From: a virus
Direction: 5' to 3' (one strand)
Virus record (IMG/VR): IMGVR_UViG_3300018875_000010
Location: 1-42,550 of that record
DNA: 42,550 bases
Shown: positions 6,119 to 40,753 of the stretch, one piece after another
How positions within the stretch are numbered: the first letter of the stretch is position 1
Layout of the letters: every line of letters starts with the position of its first letter
Made by a program: the position numbers and the translations under genes
Notes under the pieces: generated by a model
Told to the model about the DNA's origin: nothing
What the model saw: the letters and a program-made list of their open reading frames with translations, nothing else
Databases searched by the model: none

Positions 6119-6134
6119 GTTCCTTCATCGCAAC
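6119..6134. promoter_or_regulatory. GTTCC-N6-GGAAC element (GTTCC TTCATC GCAAC)
   Basis: One mismatch. Intergenic, upstream of the SSB gene. Confidence 0.5.
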
Positions 6135-35681: not shown

Positions 35682-35716
35682 CCTCGGCTAGGGTAACACC
35701 TGCCGGGGCTTTTTTG
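35682..35716 (+). terminator. hairpin plus T-run between the terminase subunit genes
   Basis: CCTCGGC (35682-35688) pairs with GCCGGGG (35702-35708, one G-U), followed by CTTTTTTG. Confidence 0.5.
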
Positions 35717-35737
35717 CGTCTCCTACCCCGTTTTCTG

Positions 35738-37441
35738 ATGAAAGAAGACCTCCTTTCTTCCACCCACTTATCCTCGCAGAAGGACCCGATCAGAGGTGAC
35801 TTCCGTAACTTCCTTTACCTCGTCTGGAAGCACCTCAATCTCCCCGATCCGACACCCATCCAGTACGACATTGCGTCGTTCCTACAGCATGGCCCGAAGC
35901 GTTCGATCATCGAGGCGTTCCGTGGTGTCGGCAAATCGTGGGTAACTTCTGCCTACGTCATCTGGCTCCTACTTCGTGACCCCGATCACAAAATCCTTGT
36001 GGTCTCTGCGTCGAAGATCAGGGCCGACGACTTCACCACATTCACGCTGCGGCTCATCAACGAAATGCCGATCCTTCAGCATCTCAAGCCGAGGGCCGAT
36101 CAGCGTTGCTCGAAGGTGTCCTTTGACGTGGGACCCGCGAAGGCGTCTCACTCCCCGAGCGTGAAATCAGTCGGCATCACCGGTCAGCTTGCGGGTTCTC
36201 GCGCTGACACCATCATTGCCGACGACATCGAAATCCCCAACAACTCCCAAACGCAGGCCATGCGGGACAAGCTGTCTGAACTCGTCAAGGAGTTCGACGC
36301 TATCCTCAAGCCAGGTGGTCGCATCGTCTACCTCGGCACCCCGCAGACCGAACAGTCTCTCTACAACCTCCTCCCCGAGCGCGGCTATCAGGTTCGCGTT
36401 TGGCCCGCCCGTATCCCCGACGAGAAGCAACGGATGGTGTATGGCGAGCGTCTCGCTCCGTACATCGAGGAGCTGATCGACAAAGGCTGGAAGGCGGGTT
36501 CCTCTACGGACCCTCGACGGTTCAACGACGACGACCTCTTCGAGCGTGAAGCCTCTTACGGTAAGGCAGGCTTCGCCCTTCAGTTCATGCTCGACACTCG
36601 CCTCTCGGACGCCGACCGGTATCCGCTGAAGGTCTCCGATCTGATCGTCATGAACATCAACCCGGAGATGGCCCCTCTCAAGTTGGTGTGGGCTGCATCC
36701 CCTGAGTTGGTCCTGAACGAGCTACCGAACGTGGCCTTTGCGGGCGACCGCTATCACCGGCCTATGTTCGTGGAGAAGGATTGGGCACCGTTCACCGGGA
36801 CGGTCATGGCTATCGACCCCTCCGGTCGTGGTGGTGACGAGACCGGCTATGCCATCATCAAGTTCCTCCACGGCTACCTGTATGTGGTCGCTGCGGGAGG
36901 TCTCCCCGGTGGCTACGACGATGAGACCCTCCTGAAGCTGGCACAGATGGCGAAGCTCTATGGGGTCAATCATGTGGTCGTTGAGGCGAACTTCGGTGAC
37001 GGTATGTGGACGAAGCTGTTCACCCCTGTCCTCAACCGCGTCCACCCCTGCATGATCGAGGAGGTCAAACACTCCATGCAGAAGGAGAAGCGGATCATCG
37101 ACACCCTGGAACCGGTCATGATGCGGCACAAGCTCATCATCGACCCCAAGGTCATCGAGCAGGACTACAAGACCGTCTCTCAGTACCCACCGGAGAAGCA
37201 GCAACACTACATGCTCATGCACCAGATGACCCGGATCACGAAGGACCGTGGCGCTCTGGTGAAGGACGACCGCCTCGACGCTCTGGCTATCGCTGTCGCC
37301 TACTGGACAGAACAGATGGCGAGGGACGAGGACAAGGCGGCTGCGGCTCATCGGGAGAAGATGCTGCAAGAGGAGCTAGACAAGTTCCTCGCAGGCTTCG
37401 GCAAGAAGGGTCCAGCAAGGAACCTGTGGGTGCGGGTATAA
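35738..37441 (+). CDS. terminase large subunit (T7 gp19-like)
   Basis: FRGVGKSW, SPSVKSVGITGQLAGSRADTIIADDIE, YLGTPQTE, IDPSGRGGDETGY and DDRLDALA align with the remembered T7 gp19. Start taken at MKEDLL. Confidence 0.95.
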   Translation: MKEDLLSSTHLSSQKDPIRGDFRNFLYLVWKHLNLPDPTPIQYDIASFLQHGPKRSIIEAFRGVGKSWVTSAYVIWLLLRDPDHKILVVSASKIRADDFTTFTLRLINEMPILQHLKPRADQRCSKVSFDVGPAKASHSPSVKSVGITGQLAGSRADTIIADDIEIPNNSQTQAMRDKLSELVKEFDAILKPGGRIVYLGTPQTEQSLYNLLPERGYQVRVWPARIPDEKQRMVYGERLAPYIEELIDKGWKAGSSTDPRRFNDDDLFEREASYGKAGFALQFMLDTRLSDADRYPLKVSDLIVMNINPEMAPLKLVWAASPELVLNELPNVAFAGDRYHRPMFVEKDWAPFTGTVMAIDPSGRGGDETGYAIIKFLHGYLYVVAAGGLPGGYDDETLLKLAQMAKLYGVNHVVVEANFGDGMWTKLFTPVLNRVHPCMIEEVKHSMQKEKRIIDTLEPVMMRHKLIIDPKVIEQDYKTVSQYPPEKQQHYMLMHQMTRITKDRGALVKDDRLDALAIAVAYWTEQMARDEDKAAAAHREKMLQEELDKFLAGFGKKGPARNLWVRV

Positions 37442-38583: not shown

Positions 38584-38623
38584 CAATTAGTCCCTTGACG
38601 GGAACAGTTCCCTCGATTAGCTT
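38584..38623 (+). promoter_or_regulatory. sigma70-type early promoter (copy B of the duplicated cassette) with upstream A-tracts
   Basis: -35 TTGACG (38595-38600), 17-nt spacer, -10 TAGCTT (38618-38623). AAAAAAGTTCAAAAAAA upstream resembles an UP element. Confidence 0.6.
38590..38605. promoter_or_regulatory. GTTCC-N6-GGAAC element (GTCCC TTGACG GGAAC)
   Basis: One mismatch. The N6 spacer is the -35 box of promoter copy B. Confidence 0.55.
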
Positions 38624-38804
38624 AATGACCATCGACGGACGCCAAACGGCCTCCCGAGATGGTCGGAGCGAAGAAAGCCCGAACGCCACATAAGGCCCGC
38701 GAGGGGCACAAGGCTAAGGCTCGATCCTCCTACCGCTCTTTGACAAGTAAATCCGCTCCCTACTGATCCGCATGAAGCGGGATCGAGGCCGAAGCCGAGG
38801 TCAT

Positions 38805-38819
38805 GTGCAGTGACTGCAC
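38805..38819. repeat. 15-bp palindrome, exact (G centre)
   Basis: In the early leader, 65 nt upstream of HH-A. Confidence 0.95.
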
Positions 38820-38883: not shown

Positions 38884-38943
38884 CCTTAGCGTAGAGGGAA
38901 TGGTCCCTCCTGAAGAGACCCGCGACGGGTCGAAACGCTAAGG
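38884..38943 (+). ncRNA. hammerhead ribozyme HH-A (type III), predicted cleavage after A38893
   Basis: Stem III CCUUAGCGU/ACGCUAAGG. GUA triplet. Stem I GAGGGA-AUGG-UCCCUC. Core CUGAAGA. Stem II GACCCG-CGA-CGGGUC. GAAA. Confidence 0.8.
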
Positions 38944-38952
38944 AGAAGCATC

Positions 38953-39753
38953 ATGTTCGATACGGTCAACGAAGCCGAAGCCTTCACCAAGGAAGAGACC
39001 AAGTCCGGTTATGACTGGACCGGCGATAACTTCCTGAAGGATTGCGCCGAGACCATCAACGAACGCTATGCCCGAGCCAAGGCTGCGACCCGCAACTCGC
39101 TCGAAGACCTCCGGGTCGTCGGTGAGAGACTGAACGAAGCCAAGGAGTTCTTCAGCGACAAGGGCAAGGGTGCGTTCGGTGGATGGGTCGAAGCCCAAGG
39201 CTTCCCGTTCGATAAGACTTGGCGGGCACGTCTCATGAAGCTGGCTGCTAACTGGGACGCCATCATGGAGGCTGTCGAAGCCTTGCCTGAAGACAAGCGC
39301 AAGTGGTCGGTGGATGGCGTCTTGGCTATCTGGGCCGCTGCGGAAAAGGCCAAGGCACAGCCCGAAGGTGACACCCAAGGTGAAGCCGAAGGTGAAACCG
39401 AAGGCGAACCCAAGGCCAAGGCTAAGAAAGAGACCGAAGCCGAGCGGCTGCGTCGGGAACTGGCTGAAGCTCTCGAACTGATCGAGAAGCTGAAGGCAGA
39501 GAACGAGGCACTCAAGGCCAAGGCTGACGGTGGAGCCAAGGCGAAGGCCAAGGCGAAGCCCGAGGAACCCAAGGCAGGCAACACTGGCACAGTCGATGCC
39601 GTCACCAAGAAGCGGGCCTCTAAGGTGTGGGGTCTCTACACCCGAGGCGCTACCGATGGTGAGAAAGACGCTGCAAAGGCACGTCTCGAAGAGATGGCCG
39701 CGAAGTTCGGTCTGGACTTCGACGCCTTCGTCAAAGCCTGCGGGCTTGCTTAA
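38953..39753 (+). CDS. early protein, DUF3102-like N-terminal domain plus Lys/Ala/Glu-rich coiled coil
   Basis: SD AAGGAG. VGERLNEAKEFF....GAFGGWVEAQGF...TWRARLMKLA resembles DUF3102 as remembered. Confidence 0.65.
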   Translation: MFDTVNEAEAFTKEETKSGYDWTGDNFLKDCAETINERYARAKAATRNSLEDLRVVGERLNEAKEFFSDKGKGAFGGWVEAQGFPFDKTWRARLMKLAANWDAIMEAVEALPEDKRKWSVDGVLAIWAAAEKAKAQPEGDTQGEAEGETEGEPKAKAKKETEAERLRRELAEALELIEKLKAENEALKAKADGGAKAKAKAKPEEPKAGNTGTVDAVTKKRASKVWGLYTRGATDGEKDAAKARLEEMAAKFGLDFDAFVKACGLA

Positions 39754-39765
39754 TTTGCGCGGACG

Positions 39766-39781
39766 GTTCCGTAACAGGAAC
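39766..39781. promoter_or_regulatory. GTTCC-N6-GGAAC element, perfect
   Basis: GTTCC GTAACA GGAAC, after the stop at 39753. The extended hairpin's 3' arm (GTCCCGCG) reaches the HH-B stem III strand GCGU (39788-39791). Confidence 0.6.
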
Positions 39782-39787
39782 TGTCCC

Positions 39788-39839
39788 GCGTCTTGGACTG
39801 ATGCCGTCCAACTGATGAGGCCAAGGCAGGCCGAAACGC
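39788..39839 (+). ncRNA. hammerhead ribozyme HH-B (type III), predicted cleavage after C39792
   Basis: Stem III GCGU/ACGC (4 bp). GUC triplet. Stem I UUGGAC-UGAUGCC-GUCCAA. Core CUGAUGA. Stem II GGCC-AAGGCA-GGCC. GAAA. Confidence 0.8.
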
Positions 39840-39863
39840 AAATCAACGCTAAGGAGAAGTGAC

Positions 39864-40208
39864 ATGCGCGAAGCTCGTATCATCCTCCCTCTCGCTGACA
39901 ACGACGGGAAGCCGGTTGATACCGCTCATGAGTACCTGAAGGGTCGCCTCTGCCGTCTCTTTGGCGGCTTCACGGCTACTCCGGTTATGGGCGGCTGGAT
40001 GGATGACAGCGGGCGGCTCTATGAAGACCGCTCAATCGCCTATGACGTGGCGATGGAAGACACCTACGAGAACGCCCGCAAGGTCGGCTCGATTGCCGAG
40101 ATTGCAGGTCAGATGGCGAAGCAACTCGCCATGTATGTGCGGCTCCCGAATGGGAACGTCCAAATCCTCAACATCGAACCCGCAGCCGAAGCCGCAAAGG
40201 CTGCTTAA
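39864..40208 (+). CDS. early hypothetical protein (114 aa)
   Basis: SD AAGGAG. Clean ORF. Confidence 0.65.
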   Translation: MREARIILPLADNDGKPVDTAHEYLKGRLCRLFGGFTATPVMGGWMDDSGRLYEDRSIAYDVAMEDTYENARKVGSIAEIAGQMAKQLAMYVRLPNGNVQILNIEPAAEAAKAA

Positions 40209-40221
40209 TCGCGCCCCTACG

Positions 40222-40237
40222 GTTCCCCTTCAGGAAC
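40222..40237. promoter_or_regulatory. GTTCC-N6-GGAAC element, perfect
   Basis: ACGGTTCC-CCTTCA-GGAACCGT. The 3' arm overlaps the HH-C stem III strand. Confidence 0.6.
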
Positions 40238-40297
40238 CGTTCGGTCTTCCCCTGAAGCCGGGGAACTGATGAGCCGAAGGCACGGCGAAACCGAACG
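40238..40297 (+). ncRNA. hammerhead ribozyme HH-C (type III), predicted cleavage after C40246
   Basis: Stem III CGUUCGGU/ACCGAACG. GUC triplet. Stem I UUCCCC-UGAAGCC-GGGGAA. Core CUGAUGA. Stem II GCCG-AAGGCA-CGGC. GAAA. Confidence 0.85.
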
Positions 40298-40311
40298 CTA
40301 AGGAGACAGCT

Positions 40312-40656
40312 ATGGAACTGCTTACCGATGCCATCAAGGAAGCCTTGCTTGCCAATGGACGCCGCACGGCCCAAGGCGAGACCATAGACCCGCATCCGGT
40401 CTGTAAACTCTTTACACCGGACGCCGGGGCTACCTGGCTCTTGACGGAATTGGACCCGCTCGATCCCGACATGGCCTTCGGTCTCTGTGACCTTGGGCTA
40501 GGCGAACCCGAGATTGGCTATGTGTCATTGACCGAAATCAAAGCCATCCGGGGACGCCTCGGGCTACCCGTTGAGCGGGACCTCTACTTCAACGCCACCC
40601 TGCCCTTGAGCCTCTACGCTGAGAGGGCACGACTCCAAGGGTGCATTGCAGCCTAA
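40312..40656 (+). CDS. DUF2958-family protein
   Basis: KLFTPDAGATWLLTELDP....AFGLCDLGLGEPEIGYVSLTEI...RGRLGLPVERDLYF is the DUF2958 pattern as remembered. Confidence 0.8.
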   Translation: MELLTDAIKEALLANGRRTAQGETIDPHPVCKLFTPDAGATWLLTELDPLDPDMAFGLCDLGLGEPEIGYVSLTEIKAIRGRLGLPVERDLYFNATLPLSLYAERARLQGCIAA

Positions 40657-40658
40657 AC

Positions 40659-40673
40659 GTGCAGTCACTGCAC
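40659..40673. repeat. 15-bp palindrome, exact
   Basis: 2 nt after the stop of 40312..40656; directly abuts HH-D. Confidence 0.95.
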
Positions 40674-40674
40674 C

Positions 40675-40753
40675 TATACACCGCCTGATGAGACCATAGG
40701 GTCGAAACCTAGAGAGGGTGCTTTAGTTTCCCTCTCGACGGTCGCGGTGGATA
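40675..40753 (+). ncRNA. hammerhead ribozyme HH-D (type I), predicted cleavage after C40743
   Basis: Stem I UAUACACCGC/GCGGUGGAUA (one mismatch). Core CUGAUGA. Stem II GACC-AUAG-GGUC. GAAA. Stem III ACC..GAGAGGG-loop-CCCUCUC..GGU. GUC triplet. Confidence 0.7.

What the first reader, a model, noticed from the sequence alone, without database searches (positions are those of the whole stretch)
38884..40305. Ribozyme stem III involves the ribosome-binding region and competes with upstream hairpins
In HH-A the 3' strand of stem III (ACGCUAAGG, 38935-38943) includes the first four bases of the SD AAGGAG (38940-38945). The uncleaved fold would therefore partly mask the RBS, and loss of the 5' fragment after cleavage would expose it. 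All three genes share the leader (A)ACGCUAAGGAGA. In HH-B and HH-C the 5' strand of stem III (GCGU at 39788-39791; CGUUCGGU at 40238-40245) is also the 3' arm of a stronger upstream hairpin. That hairpin is CGCGGACGGTTCC...GGAACTGTCCCGCG for HH-B and ACGGTTCC-CCTTCA-GGAACCGT for HH-C. The active ribozyme fold and the terminator-like hairpin are mutually exclusive, which is the architecture of a co-transcriptional switch.
Basis: inference. Interest (0 to 1): 0.6.

Follow-up and report, generated by a model that had tools for sequence, protein, structure and literature searches.

The report
Hammerhead ribozymes framing phage early genes
Self-cutting RNA motifs separate the early genes of a T7-like temperate phage. 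The first one hides the next gene's ribosome-binding site inside a conserved helix, but the "competing" hairpins in front of the other two look like end-caps for the upstream message rather than a regulatory switch.

Summary
All coordinates are correct and the three type III hammerheads are real. A fourth, type I, lies at 40679-40749. The arrangement is orthologous to the Azorhizobium caulinodans prophage cluster that Perreault et al. 2011 showed to cleave.

RBS masking holds for HH-A only. Its 9-bp stem III contains 4 nt of the SD. In 10 orthologous loci the stem always runs 3-5 nt into the SD, and 7 of its 9 pairs show changes on both sides. In HH-B and HH-C the SD lies 11 and 2 nt beyond stem III. 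Across the class (20 instances with an identifiable SD and start) the SD is never inside stem III.

The hairpin overlap is real but small: 3-4 nt. It is not mutually exclusive with the ribozyme fold, since HH-C can keep a 6-bp hairpin alongside a 7-bp stem III. It is not above chance in a flank-shuffle control. The refolding barrier is about 7 kcal/mol, and there is no U-tract.

What is conserved is abutment. A strong hairpin ends 0-1 nt before a 3-5-bp stem III in 15 of 22 instances, against 1.3% of random positions.

Most likely the ribozymes process the early polycistronic RNA constitutively, leaving hairpin-capped 3' ends. A switch is unsupported. This scan has noted SD-in-stem-III hammerheads in other phages before.

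The parts
38884..38943 (+). HH-A, a type III hammerhead of 'class A'. Stem III pairs 38884-38892 with 38935-43 (9 bp); stem I is 38894-38909 and stem II 38917-38931. Cleavage is after A38893.
   Evidence: It is the MFE fold. Covariation in 10 orthologues. Rfam does not find it.
38940..38945 (+). SD AAGGAG of gene 1. Its first 4 nt lie inside stem III of HH-A.
38953..39753 (+). Gene 1 (266 aa, no Pfam match). It is an orthologue of AZC_3573 of A. caulinodans ORS 571.
39757..39791 (+). Gene-end hairpin. The 10-bp core pairs 39761-39770 with 39777-39786. A 3-4-bp extension pairs 39757-60 with 39788-91 across the bulged C39787.
   Evidence: The core is conserved with compensatory changes in L001, L007, L087, L088 and L093.
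39788..39839 (+). HH-B, a type III hammerhead of 'class B/C'. It has a 4-bp stem III and a pseudoknot between loop I (UGCC) and loop II (GGCA). Cleavage is after C39792.
   Evidence: covariation.
39846..39857 (+). Shared leader, including the SD (39851-39856) of gene 2. It lies 11 nt beyond stem III.
39864..40208 (+). Gene 2 (114 aa, no family match).
40219..40240 (+). Gene-end hairpin (8 bp). Its last 3 nt are also the first 3 nt of the 5' strand of HH-C stem III.
40238..40297 (+). HH-C, a type III hammerhead of class B/C with an atypically long 8-bp stem III. Cleavage is after C40246.
40295..40306 (+). Shared leader with the SD (40300-40305) of gene 3. The SD starts 2 nt beyond stem III.
40312..40656 (+). 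Gene 3, a DUF2958 protein.
   Evidence: PF11171, E 3e-42.
40679..40749 (+). HH-D, a type I hammerhead that closes the block. Cleavage is after C40743.
   Evidence: It was noted separately by the scan.

Best explanation
The three type III hammerheads, plus the type I HH-D, are constitutive self-processing sites. They cut the early polycistronic transcript of a T7-like temperate phage into single-gene mRNAs. The job is the one host RNase III does on the T7 early transcript.

Two designs are used.
- Class A (HH-A) is the first in the operon. It has a long 7-9-bp stem III whose 3' strand is the front of the SD. Gene 1 can therefore be translated well only after cleavage and loss of the non-coding 5' leader fragment.
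- Class B/C (HH-B, HH-C) lie between coding genes. They have a minimal 3-5-bp stem III that starts 0-1 nt after a strong hairpin closing the upstream gene.

For class B/C, the short stem lets the products part at once after cleavage. The upstream mRNA is left ending in a GC-rich hairpin with a 1-2-nt overhang and a cyclic phosphate, which should resist 3' exonucleases. The downstream mRNA starts with a 5'-OH, two ribozyme hairpins and a standard leader and SD.

The few nucleotides shared by hairpin and stem III in this window are a branch-migration zone. It favours product release after the cut; it is not a gate that decides whether the cut happens.

Shown here: the motifs, the covariation, the abutment and the energies. 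Inferred: cleavage in this phage, the effect on translation, and 3'-end protection.
For: Ribozymes:
- All four satisfy the consensus core and the adjacent pairs.
- Class A alignment of 10 sequences: 96.6% of cells paired, and 0/500 shuffles reach the covariation score.
- Class B/C alignment of 22 sequences: 91.8% of cells paired overall, stems I and II 100% paired, the pseudoknot 98.9% paired with two covarying pairs, 0/500 shuffles.
- L093 encodes AZC_3573 exactly. It is therefore the A. caulinodans prophage whose tandem hammerheads cleaved in vitro (PMC3088659).

SD masking in class A:
- 10 of 10 orthologues have 3-5 SD nt inside stem III.
- The A15.1-to-AUG distance is fixed at 15-19 nt.
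- Three unrelated stem sequences occur: CCUUAGCGU/ACGCUAAGG, UCCUCACGU/ACGUGAGGA and CUCUAUCGU/ACGAUAGAG.
- 7 of 9 stem III pairs change on both sides.
- P(SD unpaired) is 2e-4 before cleavage and 0.45 after.

End-cap reading for class B/C:
- Stem III is 3-5 bp in 21 of 22 instances, and its trans duplex is only -1 to -6 kcal/mol, against -11 to -14 for class A.
- A strong local hairpin ends 0-1 nt upstream in 15/22 instances, against 20/1500 random positions and 0/10 class A sites.
- The folded 5' products of HH-B and HH-C have 1- and 2-nt unpaired tails.
- By their geometry, type I and II hammerheads in the same operons also leave a stem III hairpin plus 1 nt at the upstream 3' end.
- The hairpin is kept without a ribozyme in L001.

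T7 parallel: the early RNA is cut at five RNase III sites, and this is needed for optimal translation (PMC4858673). Relatives carry T7-kinase-like early genes in these cassettes.
Against: - No cleavage, stability or translation data exist for this phage.
- After cleavage the 9-bp HH-A duplex (-13.8 kcal/mol) could hold the leader fragment for a long time, so unmasking is not automatic.
- In two orthologues the modelled SD stays mostly paired after cleavage (L087, L088).
- Nearest-neighbour models put the HH-B active fold 4.4 kcal/mol above the hairpin state, so some real inhibition cannot be excluded.
- The strict 0-1-nt gap fits a coaxial-stacking clamp equally well.
- The early promoter, and hence the size of the HH-A 5' fragment, is only inferred.
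Confidence: 0.55

Rival explanations
1. The upstream hairpin and the active ribozyme fold of HH-B and HH-C are alternative structures chosen during transcription, so cleavage, and with it downstream expression, is regulated. A specific version is possible: the 5' strand of the hairpin extension starts 3-4 nt after the gene-1 stop codon, so a terminating ribosome would melt it and license cleavage.
For: - The MFE folds of both spacers keep the hairpin and lack stem III.
- The HH-B extension costs about 3.3 kcal/mol: +4.4 with it against +1.1 without.
- A 4-bp flank/tail pairing recurs in L087, L088, L007 and L093. It changes in step with stem III in L088:1669 (GCCU with GGGU).
- The hairpin starts about 7 nt after the stop codon in most orthologues.
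Against: - Flank shuffles pair the tail as well as the real flank in 16 of 22 cases, including both window copies.
- The overlap is absent or at most 2 bp in L105, L107, L109, L110 and L104.
- Relatives without any overlap show the same low modelled stem III probability, so that is a property of 4-bp stems in the energy model.
- Barriers of 6.5-7.1 kcal/mol allow fast exchange, so there is no kinetic trap.
- HH-C prefers the ribozyme fold with a shortened hairpin.
- The A. caulinodans orthologue cleaves efficiently in vitro.
- No ligand or sensor element is evident.
Confidence: 0.12
2. The abutting hairpin is a structural helper. It stacks coaxially on the 3-5-bp stem III and stabilises an otherwise too-short helix. 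It is then part of the ribozyme rather than a competitor or an mRNA end-cap.
For: - The gap is 0 or 1 nt in 20 of 22 instances.
- The hairpin is found only with short stem III: 15/22 in class B/C against 0/10 in class A.
- The 4-bp stem III is unfavourable on its own in the energy model, at +1.1 kcal/mol.
Against: - The hairpin is conserved without any hammerhead in L001, and similar gene-end hairpins occur elsewhere in this genome.
- Stacking cannot be evaluated with the tools at hand.
- This reading is compatible with the end-cap reading, so it may be an added role rather than a rival.
Confidence: 0.2
3. The overlaps are by-products of tight packing and have no role. The SD lies in stem III of HH-A only because ribozyme and gene are adjacent, and the hairpins are ordinary gene-end structures next to which ribozyme cassettes happened to insert.
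For: - Leaders and cassettes look modular and shuffled between phages: the gene content between ribozymes differs in every relative.
- The overlap in HH-B and HH-C is at chance level.
Against: - The SD overlap and spacing are kept in 10 of 10 class A orthologues through compensatory changes.
- The abutment is about 50-fold enriched over random positions, including five unrelated contigs found by a pattern that did not specify the flanks.
Confidence: 0.13

Closest known systems
Clustered hammerhead ribozymes flanking genes next to marR and integrase in prophages of Azorhizobium caulinodans, Agrobacterium tumefaciens and Clostridium scindens (Perreault et al. 2011, PMC3088659)
   Same: The element is orthologous. 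Gene 1 is 66% identical to AZC_3573, and L093 is that prophage. Types I, II and III are mixed in the same orientation between early genes upstream of marR and int. Cleavage was shown in vitro and in E. coli for those clusters.
   Different: In the passages my term searches returned, that paper does not mention a Shine-Dalgarno site, a terminator or coaxial stacking, and it leaves the function open. The conserved SD-containing stem III (class A) and the hairpin abutting a minimal stem III (class B/C) are described here.
RNase III processing of the phage T7 early polycistronic mRNA
   Same: Both involve a T7-like genome with an early region between the genome end and the RNA polymerase gene. [quoted passage not shown] That processed T7 3' ends carry hairpins is from my own knowledge of Dunn and Studier's work.
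   Different: Here the cut would be made by the RNA itself rather than a host enzyme. It leaves 2',3'-cyclic phosphate and 5'-OH ends rather than 3'-OH and 5'-phosphate. The comparison is works-like only, not membership.
Engineered hammerhead RBS switches and ribozyme insulators in bacteria (Wieland and Hartig 2008, Ogawa and Maeda 2008, RiboJ; cited from my own knowledge, with the principle shown in PMC12192606)
   Same: The SD is paired into a hammerhead stem and freed by self-cleavage. The ribozyme gives each gene a context-independent 5' end and a standard leader.
   Different: Those are synthetic and usually ligand-gated. HH-A is natural, shows no aptamer, and uses stem III.
Hammerheads in 5' UTRs of fungal and plant RNA viruses whose self-cleavage is required for translation initiation (PMC13725137, 2026)
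   Same: A viral hammerhead sits just upstream of an ORF and couples self-cleavage to translation.
   Different: That is eukaryotic cap-independent initiation with type I motifs and no SD pairing. The mechanism differs.

Membership tests
Hammerhead ribozyme, type III (Rfam RF00008, clan CL00010) | Conserved core C3-U4-G5-A6-N7-G8-A9 ... G12-A13-A14, the A15.1-U16.1 pair, and H17 at the cleavage site | tested here: met
   All three match. HH-A has N7 = A and H17 = A.
Hammerhead ribozyme, type III (Rfam RF00008, clan CL00010) | Three helices around the core with stem III open, supported by covariation | tested here: met
   class A, 14 pairs with changes on both sides; class B/C, 14 pairs. In both, 0/500 shuffles reach the score and slid controls give 27-44% paired.
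Hammerhead ribozyme, type III (Rfam RF00008, clan CL00010) | Score at or above the family's gathering threshold | tested here: not met
   HH-C scores 42.8 and HH-B 37.8 bits against a threshold of 48.5. HH-A has no hit at E <= 10. The local E-values of 2e-7 and 6e-6 are still significant.
Hammerhead ribozyme, type III (Rfam RF00008, clan CL00010) | Self-cleavage activity | not testable with these tools
   Shown only for the orthologous A. caulinodans cluster (PMC3088659).
RBS-sequestering translational control element | SD nucleotides paired in a helix that is conserved through compensatory change | tested here: met
   Met for HH-A only: 10 of 10 orthologues. Not met for HH-B, HH-C or any other class B/C instance with an identifiable SD.
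RBS-sequestering translational control element | Translation changes when the helix is opened or cleaved | not testable with these tools
   Only modelled: P(SD unpaired) goes from 2e-4 to 0.45.
Co-transcriptional RNA switch (riboswitch-like alternative folds) | Two mutually exclusive folds, both conserved | tested here: not met
   The folds coexist after a 1-3-bp adjustment. The competing extension is not above shuffled flanks and is absent in about half of the orthologues.
Co-transcriptional RNA switch (riboswitch-like alternative folds) | A kinetic trap or a sensed signal that selects the fold | tested here: inconclusive
   Findpath barriers are 6.5-7.1 kcal/mol, so no trap is expected. No aptamer-like element was seen. 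The ribosome-termination idea is untested.
Intrinsic (Rho-independent) terminator | GC-rich hairpin followed by a U-tract | tested here: not met
   No U-run follows either hairpin, and neither is listed by the terminator scan.

The most novel reading that the evidence does not exclude
The short hairpin extension that shares nucleotides with stem III is a translation sensor. Its 5' strand lies 3-7 nt after the upstream stop codon, inside the footprint of a terminating ribosome. HH-B and HH-C would then cut efficiently only on messages whose upstream gene has been translated. This would couple mRNA processing, and the unmasking or stabilising of the next cistron, to ribosome traffic. Together with HH-A it would be a natural ribozyme-based circuit for translational control in a phage.
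Probability: 0.12. Interest if true: 0.75.

Novelty: new variant of a known kind. Interest (0 to 1): 0.45.

Why it matters
Clusters of hammerheads between phage genes have been known since 2011, but what they are for is still described as open (PMC6765202). This locus and its relatives give two concrete, conserved design rules.

- The first ribozyme of the operon pairs the ribosome-binding site into its own stem.
- Ribozymes that follow a coding gene use a minimal stem butted against a strong hairpin.

Both rules make simple predictions for translation and mRNA stability. These can be tested with reporters in the cultivable host Azorhizobium caulinodans. If they hold, these phages carry a host-independent equivalent of T7's RNase III processing and a natural counterpart of synthetic ribozyme insulators.

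Tried and rejected
- Rfam at gathering thresholds finds none of the hammerheads.
- blastn of the region against the phage collection gave nothing.
- Single-protein locus searches with genes 2 and 3 gave nothing or only distant hits without useful context. Of 80 terminase-related loci, only L007 and L082 carried hammerheads.
- I first thought the hairpin/stem III overlap was unique to this window. I then thought a flank/tail helix was conserved. The flank-shuffle control shows the tail pairs just as well with shuffled flanks in most cases, so I treat that helix as unproven. Only 6 of 22 instances score <= 0.12.
- My first abutment control was too lax: 20% of random positions passed. I replaced it with a strict local-hairpin criterion.
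- The intrinsic-terminator reading is rejected because there is no U-tract.
- In this window a 7-bp long-range pairing between 39753-39759 and 37837-43 of the same spacer (that is, 39837-39843) appears in the MFE of the growing transcript. By eye I found no equivalent pairing in three relatives, and it lies under the terminating ribosome, so I treat it as chance.
- The conserved 18-nt box in front of class A hammerheads is not a repeated phage promoter: it occurs once per locus.
Full report
**Setting.** The window is a complete 42.55-kb contig. It has a T7-type terminase at 35714-37441, two MarR-like genes, and an integrase running off the 3' end. It is therefore a T7-like temperate phage. The finding lies in the block between the terminase and marR-int, where three small genes follow one another on the + strand: gene 1 (266 aa, no family), gene 2 (114 aa), and gene 3 (DUF2958).

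**The ribozymes are real.** Four matches to the hammerhead core pattern occur in the window, all on the + strand and all in this block.
- My scanner for the three topologies finds type III motifs at 38884-38943, 39788-39839 and 40238-40297, and a type I motif at 40679-40749.
- Rfam at gathering thresholds reports none of them.
- A local search gives 42.8 and 37.8 bits for HH-C and HH-B against RF00008, and a weak hit for HH-D. It gives nothing for HH-A.
- The 12-nt leader is present exactly three times, and none of 100 shuffles reached three matches.

**Relatives.** Gene 1 has 45 database homologues. One is AZC_3573 of Azorhizobium caulinodans ORS 571 at 66% identity. Locus L093 encodes that protein exactly. 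This operon is thus orthologous to one of the tandem-hammerhead prophage clusters that Perreault et al. 2011 transcribed in vitro. They saw complete cleavage, and the paper places such clusters next to marR and integrase (PMC3088659). In the passages my term searches returned, that paper says nothing about ribosome-binding sites, terminators or alternative folds. A 2019 review still calls the purpose of these ribozymes undefined.

I fetched about 25 related loci through gene 1, the terminase and a flank-neutral DNA pattern. I scanned them all. The ribozymes fall into two designs.

**Class A (HH-A).** In 10 loci a type III hammerhead sits directly before the gene-1 orthologue.
- Stem III is 7-9 bp.
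- The distance from A15.1 to the AUG is fixed at 15-19 nt.
- The last 3-5 nt of the 3' strand are always the first nucleotides of the SD.
- Three unrelated stem sequences occur: CCUUAGCGU/ACGCUAAGG, UCCUCACGU/ACGUGAGGA and CUCUAUCGU/ACGAUAGAG.
- On the alignment, 7 of 9 stem III pairs change on both sides and 96.7% of its cells are paired.
- No shuffle out of 500 reaches the covariation score, and slid controls pair at 30-44%.

In the energy model the SD of gene 1 is unpaired with probability 2e-4 in the uncut RNA and 0.45 in the 3' product.

Two caveats apply. After cleavage the leader fragment is still held by a -13.8 kcal/mol duplex, so release is a separate step. And in two orthologues the model keeps the SD partly paired after cleavage.

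**Class B/C (HH-B, HH-C).** Twenty-two instances share a loop I/loop II pseudoknot (UGCC with GGCA, which covaries to UGUC/GACA and UGCU/AGCA). Five of them come from unrelated viral contigs.
- Stems I and II are 100% paired.
- Stem III is only 3-5 bp: the fifth and sixth possible pairs are unpaired in 15-16 of 22 sequences. HH-C of this window, at 8 bp, is the exception.
- Among the 20 instances with an identifiable SD and start, the SD is never inside stem III and lies 0-39 nt downstream. In this window the gaps are 11 nt (HH-B) and 2 nt (HH-C).

RBS masking by stem III therefore does not apply to two of the three genes, although they share the leader.

**The hairpins.** What is conserved is abutment, not competition.
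- A strong local hairpin (dG <= -14 kcal/mol, span <= 40 nt) ends 0-1 nt before stem III in 15 of 22 class B/C instances.
- The same criterion is met at 20 of 1500 random positions in the same loci, and at 0 of 10 class A sites.
- The hairpin after gene 1 is homologous across relatives and keeps its pairing through compensatory changes. In the Chelatococcus relative (L001, the same contig as L091) it is present with no ribozyme behind it.
- Similar GTTCC-N6-GGAAC hairpins close other genes in this genome without ribozymes.

**The overlap is small.**
- In HH-B it is a 3-4-bp extension beyond a bulged C. It costs the ribozyme fold about 3.3 kcal/mol: +4.4 with it, +1.1 without.
- In HH-C it is 3 nt, and a fold with a 6-bp hairpin plus a 7-bp stem III beats the hairpin-only state by 2.5 kcal/mol.
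- Barriers between the states are 6.5-7.1 kcal/mol, which is too low for a co-transcriptional trap.
- Relatives with no overlap show the same low modelled probability for a 4-bp stem III. That low probability reflects the energy model, which ignores the pseudoknot and core tertiary contacts.
- A shuffle of the 12 nt upstream of each hairpin pairs the stem III 5' strand as well as the native flank in most cases. For the two window copies, 166/200 and 195/200 shuffles reach the observed value. Only 6 of 22 instances score <= 0.12.
- Neither hairpin has a U-tract.

**Interpretation.** The isolated 5' cleavage products of HH-B and HH-C fold into hairpins with 1-2 unpaired 3' nucleotides. The trans duplex left by a 4-bp stem III is only about -3.5 kcal/mol. 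By their geometry, type I and type II hammerheads in the same operons also leave the upstream RNA ending in the stem III hairpin plus one nucleotide. Class A follows a non-coding leader and has no abutting hairpin.

The simplest reading covers all of this. Each intercistronic ribozyme gives the upstream message a hairpin-capped 3' end. It gives the downstream message a 5'-OH, a structured 5' end and a standard leader. The shared nucleotides let the hairpin zip up after the cut, which drives product release.

This is the functional pattern of RNase III processing of the T7 early transcript, which is cut co-transcriptionally at five sites and is needed for optimal translation (PMC4858673). T7-kinase-like early genes sit in the orthologous cassettes of relatives. 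A stacking role for the hairpin on the short stem III is equally compatible and may coexist. A genuine switch is not excluded. The most interesting version has the terminating ribosome melt the extension, which starts 3-4 nt after the gene-1 stop codon. I rate that at about 0.12.

**Novelty.** The cluster itself is known, and synthetic biology has long used hammerheads that free an SD on cleavage. The conserved natural SD-in-stem-III design and the hairpin-abutted minimal stem III are, as far as the papers I could search show, undescribed for this lineage. Other follow-ups in this scan have noted SD-in-stem-III hammerheads in unrelated phages, so the theme recurs.

Noticed in passing
window 196-41232 (28 sites), e.g. 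38805-38819 and 40659-40673: The 15-bp palindrome GTGCAGTSACTGCAC occurs 28 times at <= 1 mismatch, where none is expected. Two copies bracket the hammerhead operon. In relatives a 14/15 variant (GTGGAG...) lies directly before many start codons, where its mismatch creates the GGAG Shine-Dalgarno. In L088:2220 and L107:4549 the palindrome itself is the hairpin abutting a hammerhead.
   Followed up: partly
window 4051, 5484, 6119, 10371, 13013, 38590, 39766, 40222 and others: GTTCC-N6-GGAAC inverted repeats: 17 hits at <= 1 mismatch against about 2 expected. Several lie just after stop codons with no ribozyme. The copy at 6119 shares the preceding CTTAATCGCG...CCC context with the HH-C hairpin at 40222. 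The copies at 1302 and 38590 enclose TTGAC.
   Followed up: partly
window 38735-38745; L007:10275-10292, L093:2911-2928, L106:2416-2433, L110:1338-1355, L115:1050-1067, L001:2773-2790: An 18-nt box, GCTSTTTGACATCGTRAA, occurs once per related locus. It lies immediately 5' of the class A hammerhead in L007, L093, L106 and L110 and of a shorter-stem type III hammerhead in L115, and it is also present in L001, which has no class A hammerhead. In the window only the first 11 nt survive, about 140 nt upstream of HH-A. Its function is unknown: it is not a repeated promoter, and no sigma-70 -10 box follows.
   Followed up: partly
window 40679-40749: A fourth hammerhead, type I, follows gene 3 and cleaves after C40743. 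It is the MFE fold. Orthologous type I motifs lie before the marR region in L088 and L093 and further 3' in L112, and type II motifs lie before the marR region in L106, L107, L109, L111 and L115.
   Followed up: partly
window 39753-39759 with 39837-39843: A 7-bp long-range complementarity joins the sequence just after the gene-1 stop codon to the 3' strand of HH-B stem III plus the following bases. It dominates the MFE of the growing transcript. By eye I found no equivalent pairing in three relatives.
   Followed up: partly
L107:4090-4503, L110:2325-2918, L116:5088-5831: The cassettes between hammerheads differ in every relative. They include a T7 gp0.7-like kinase and a T4 Y00F-like protein. 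This suggests that ribozyme-bounded gene cassettes are exchanged between these phages.
   Followed up: no
window 38584-38620: A likely early promoter. TTGACG lies inside a GTCCC-N6-GGAAC repeat, is preceded by an A-rich stretch, and has TAGCTT 17 nt downstream. It fails the simple promoter scan. If it is used, the 5' fragment released by HH-A would be about 270 nt.
   Followed up: no
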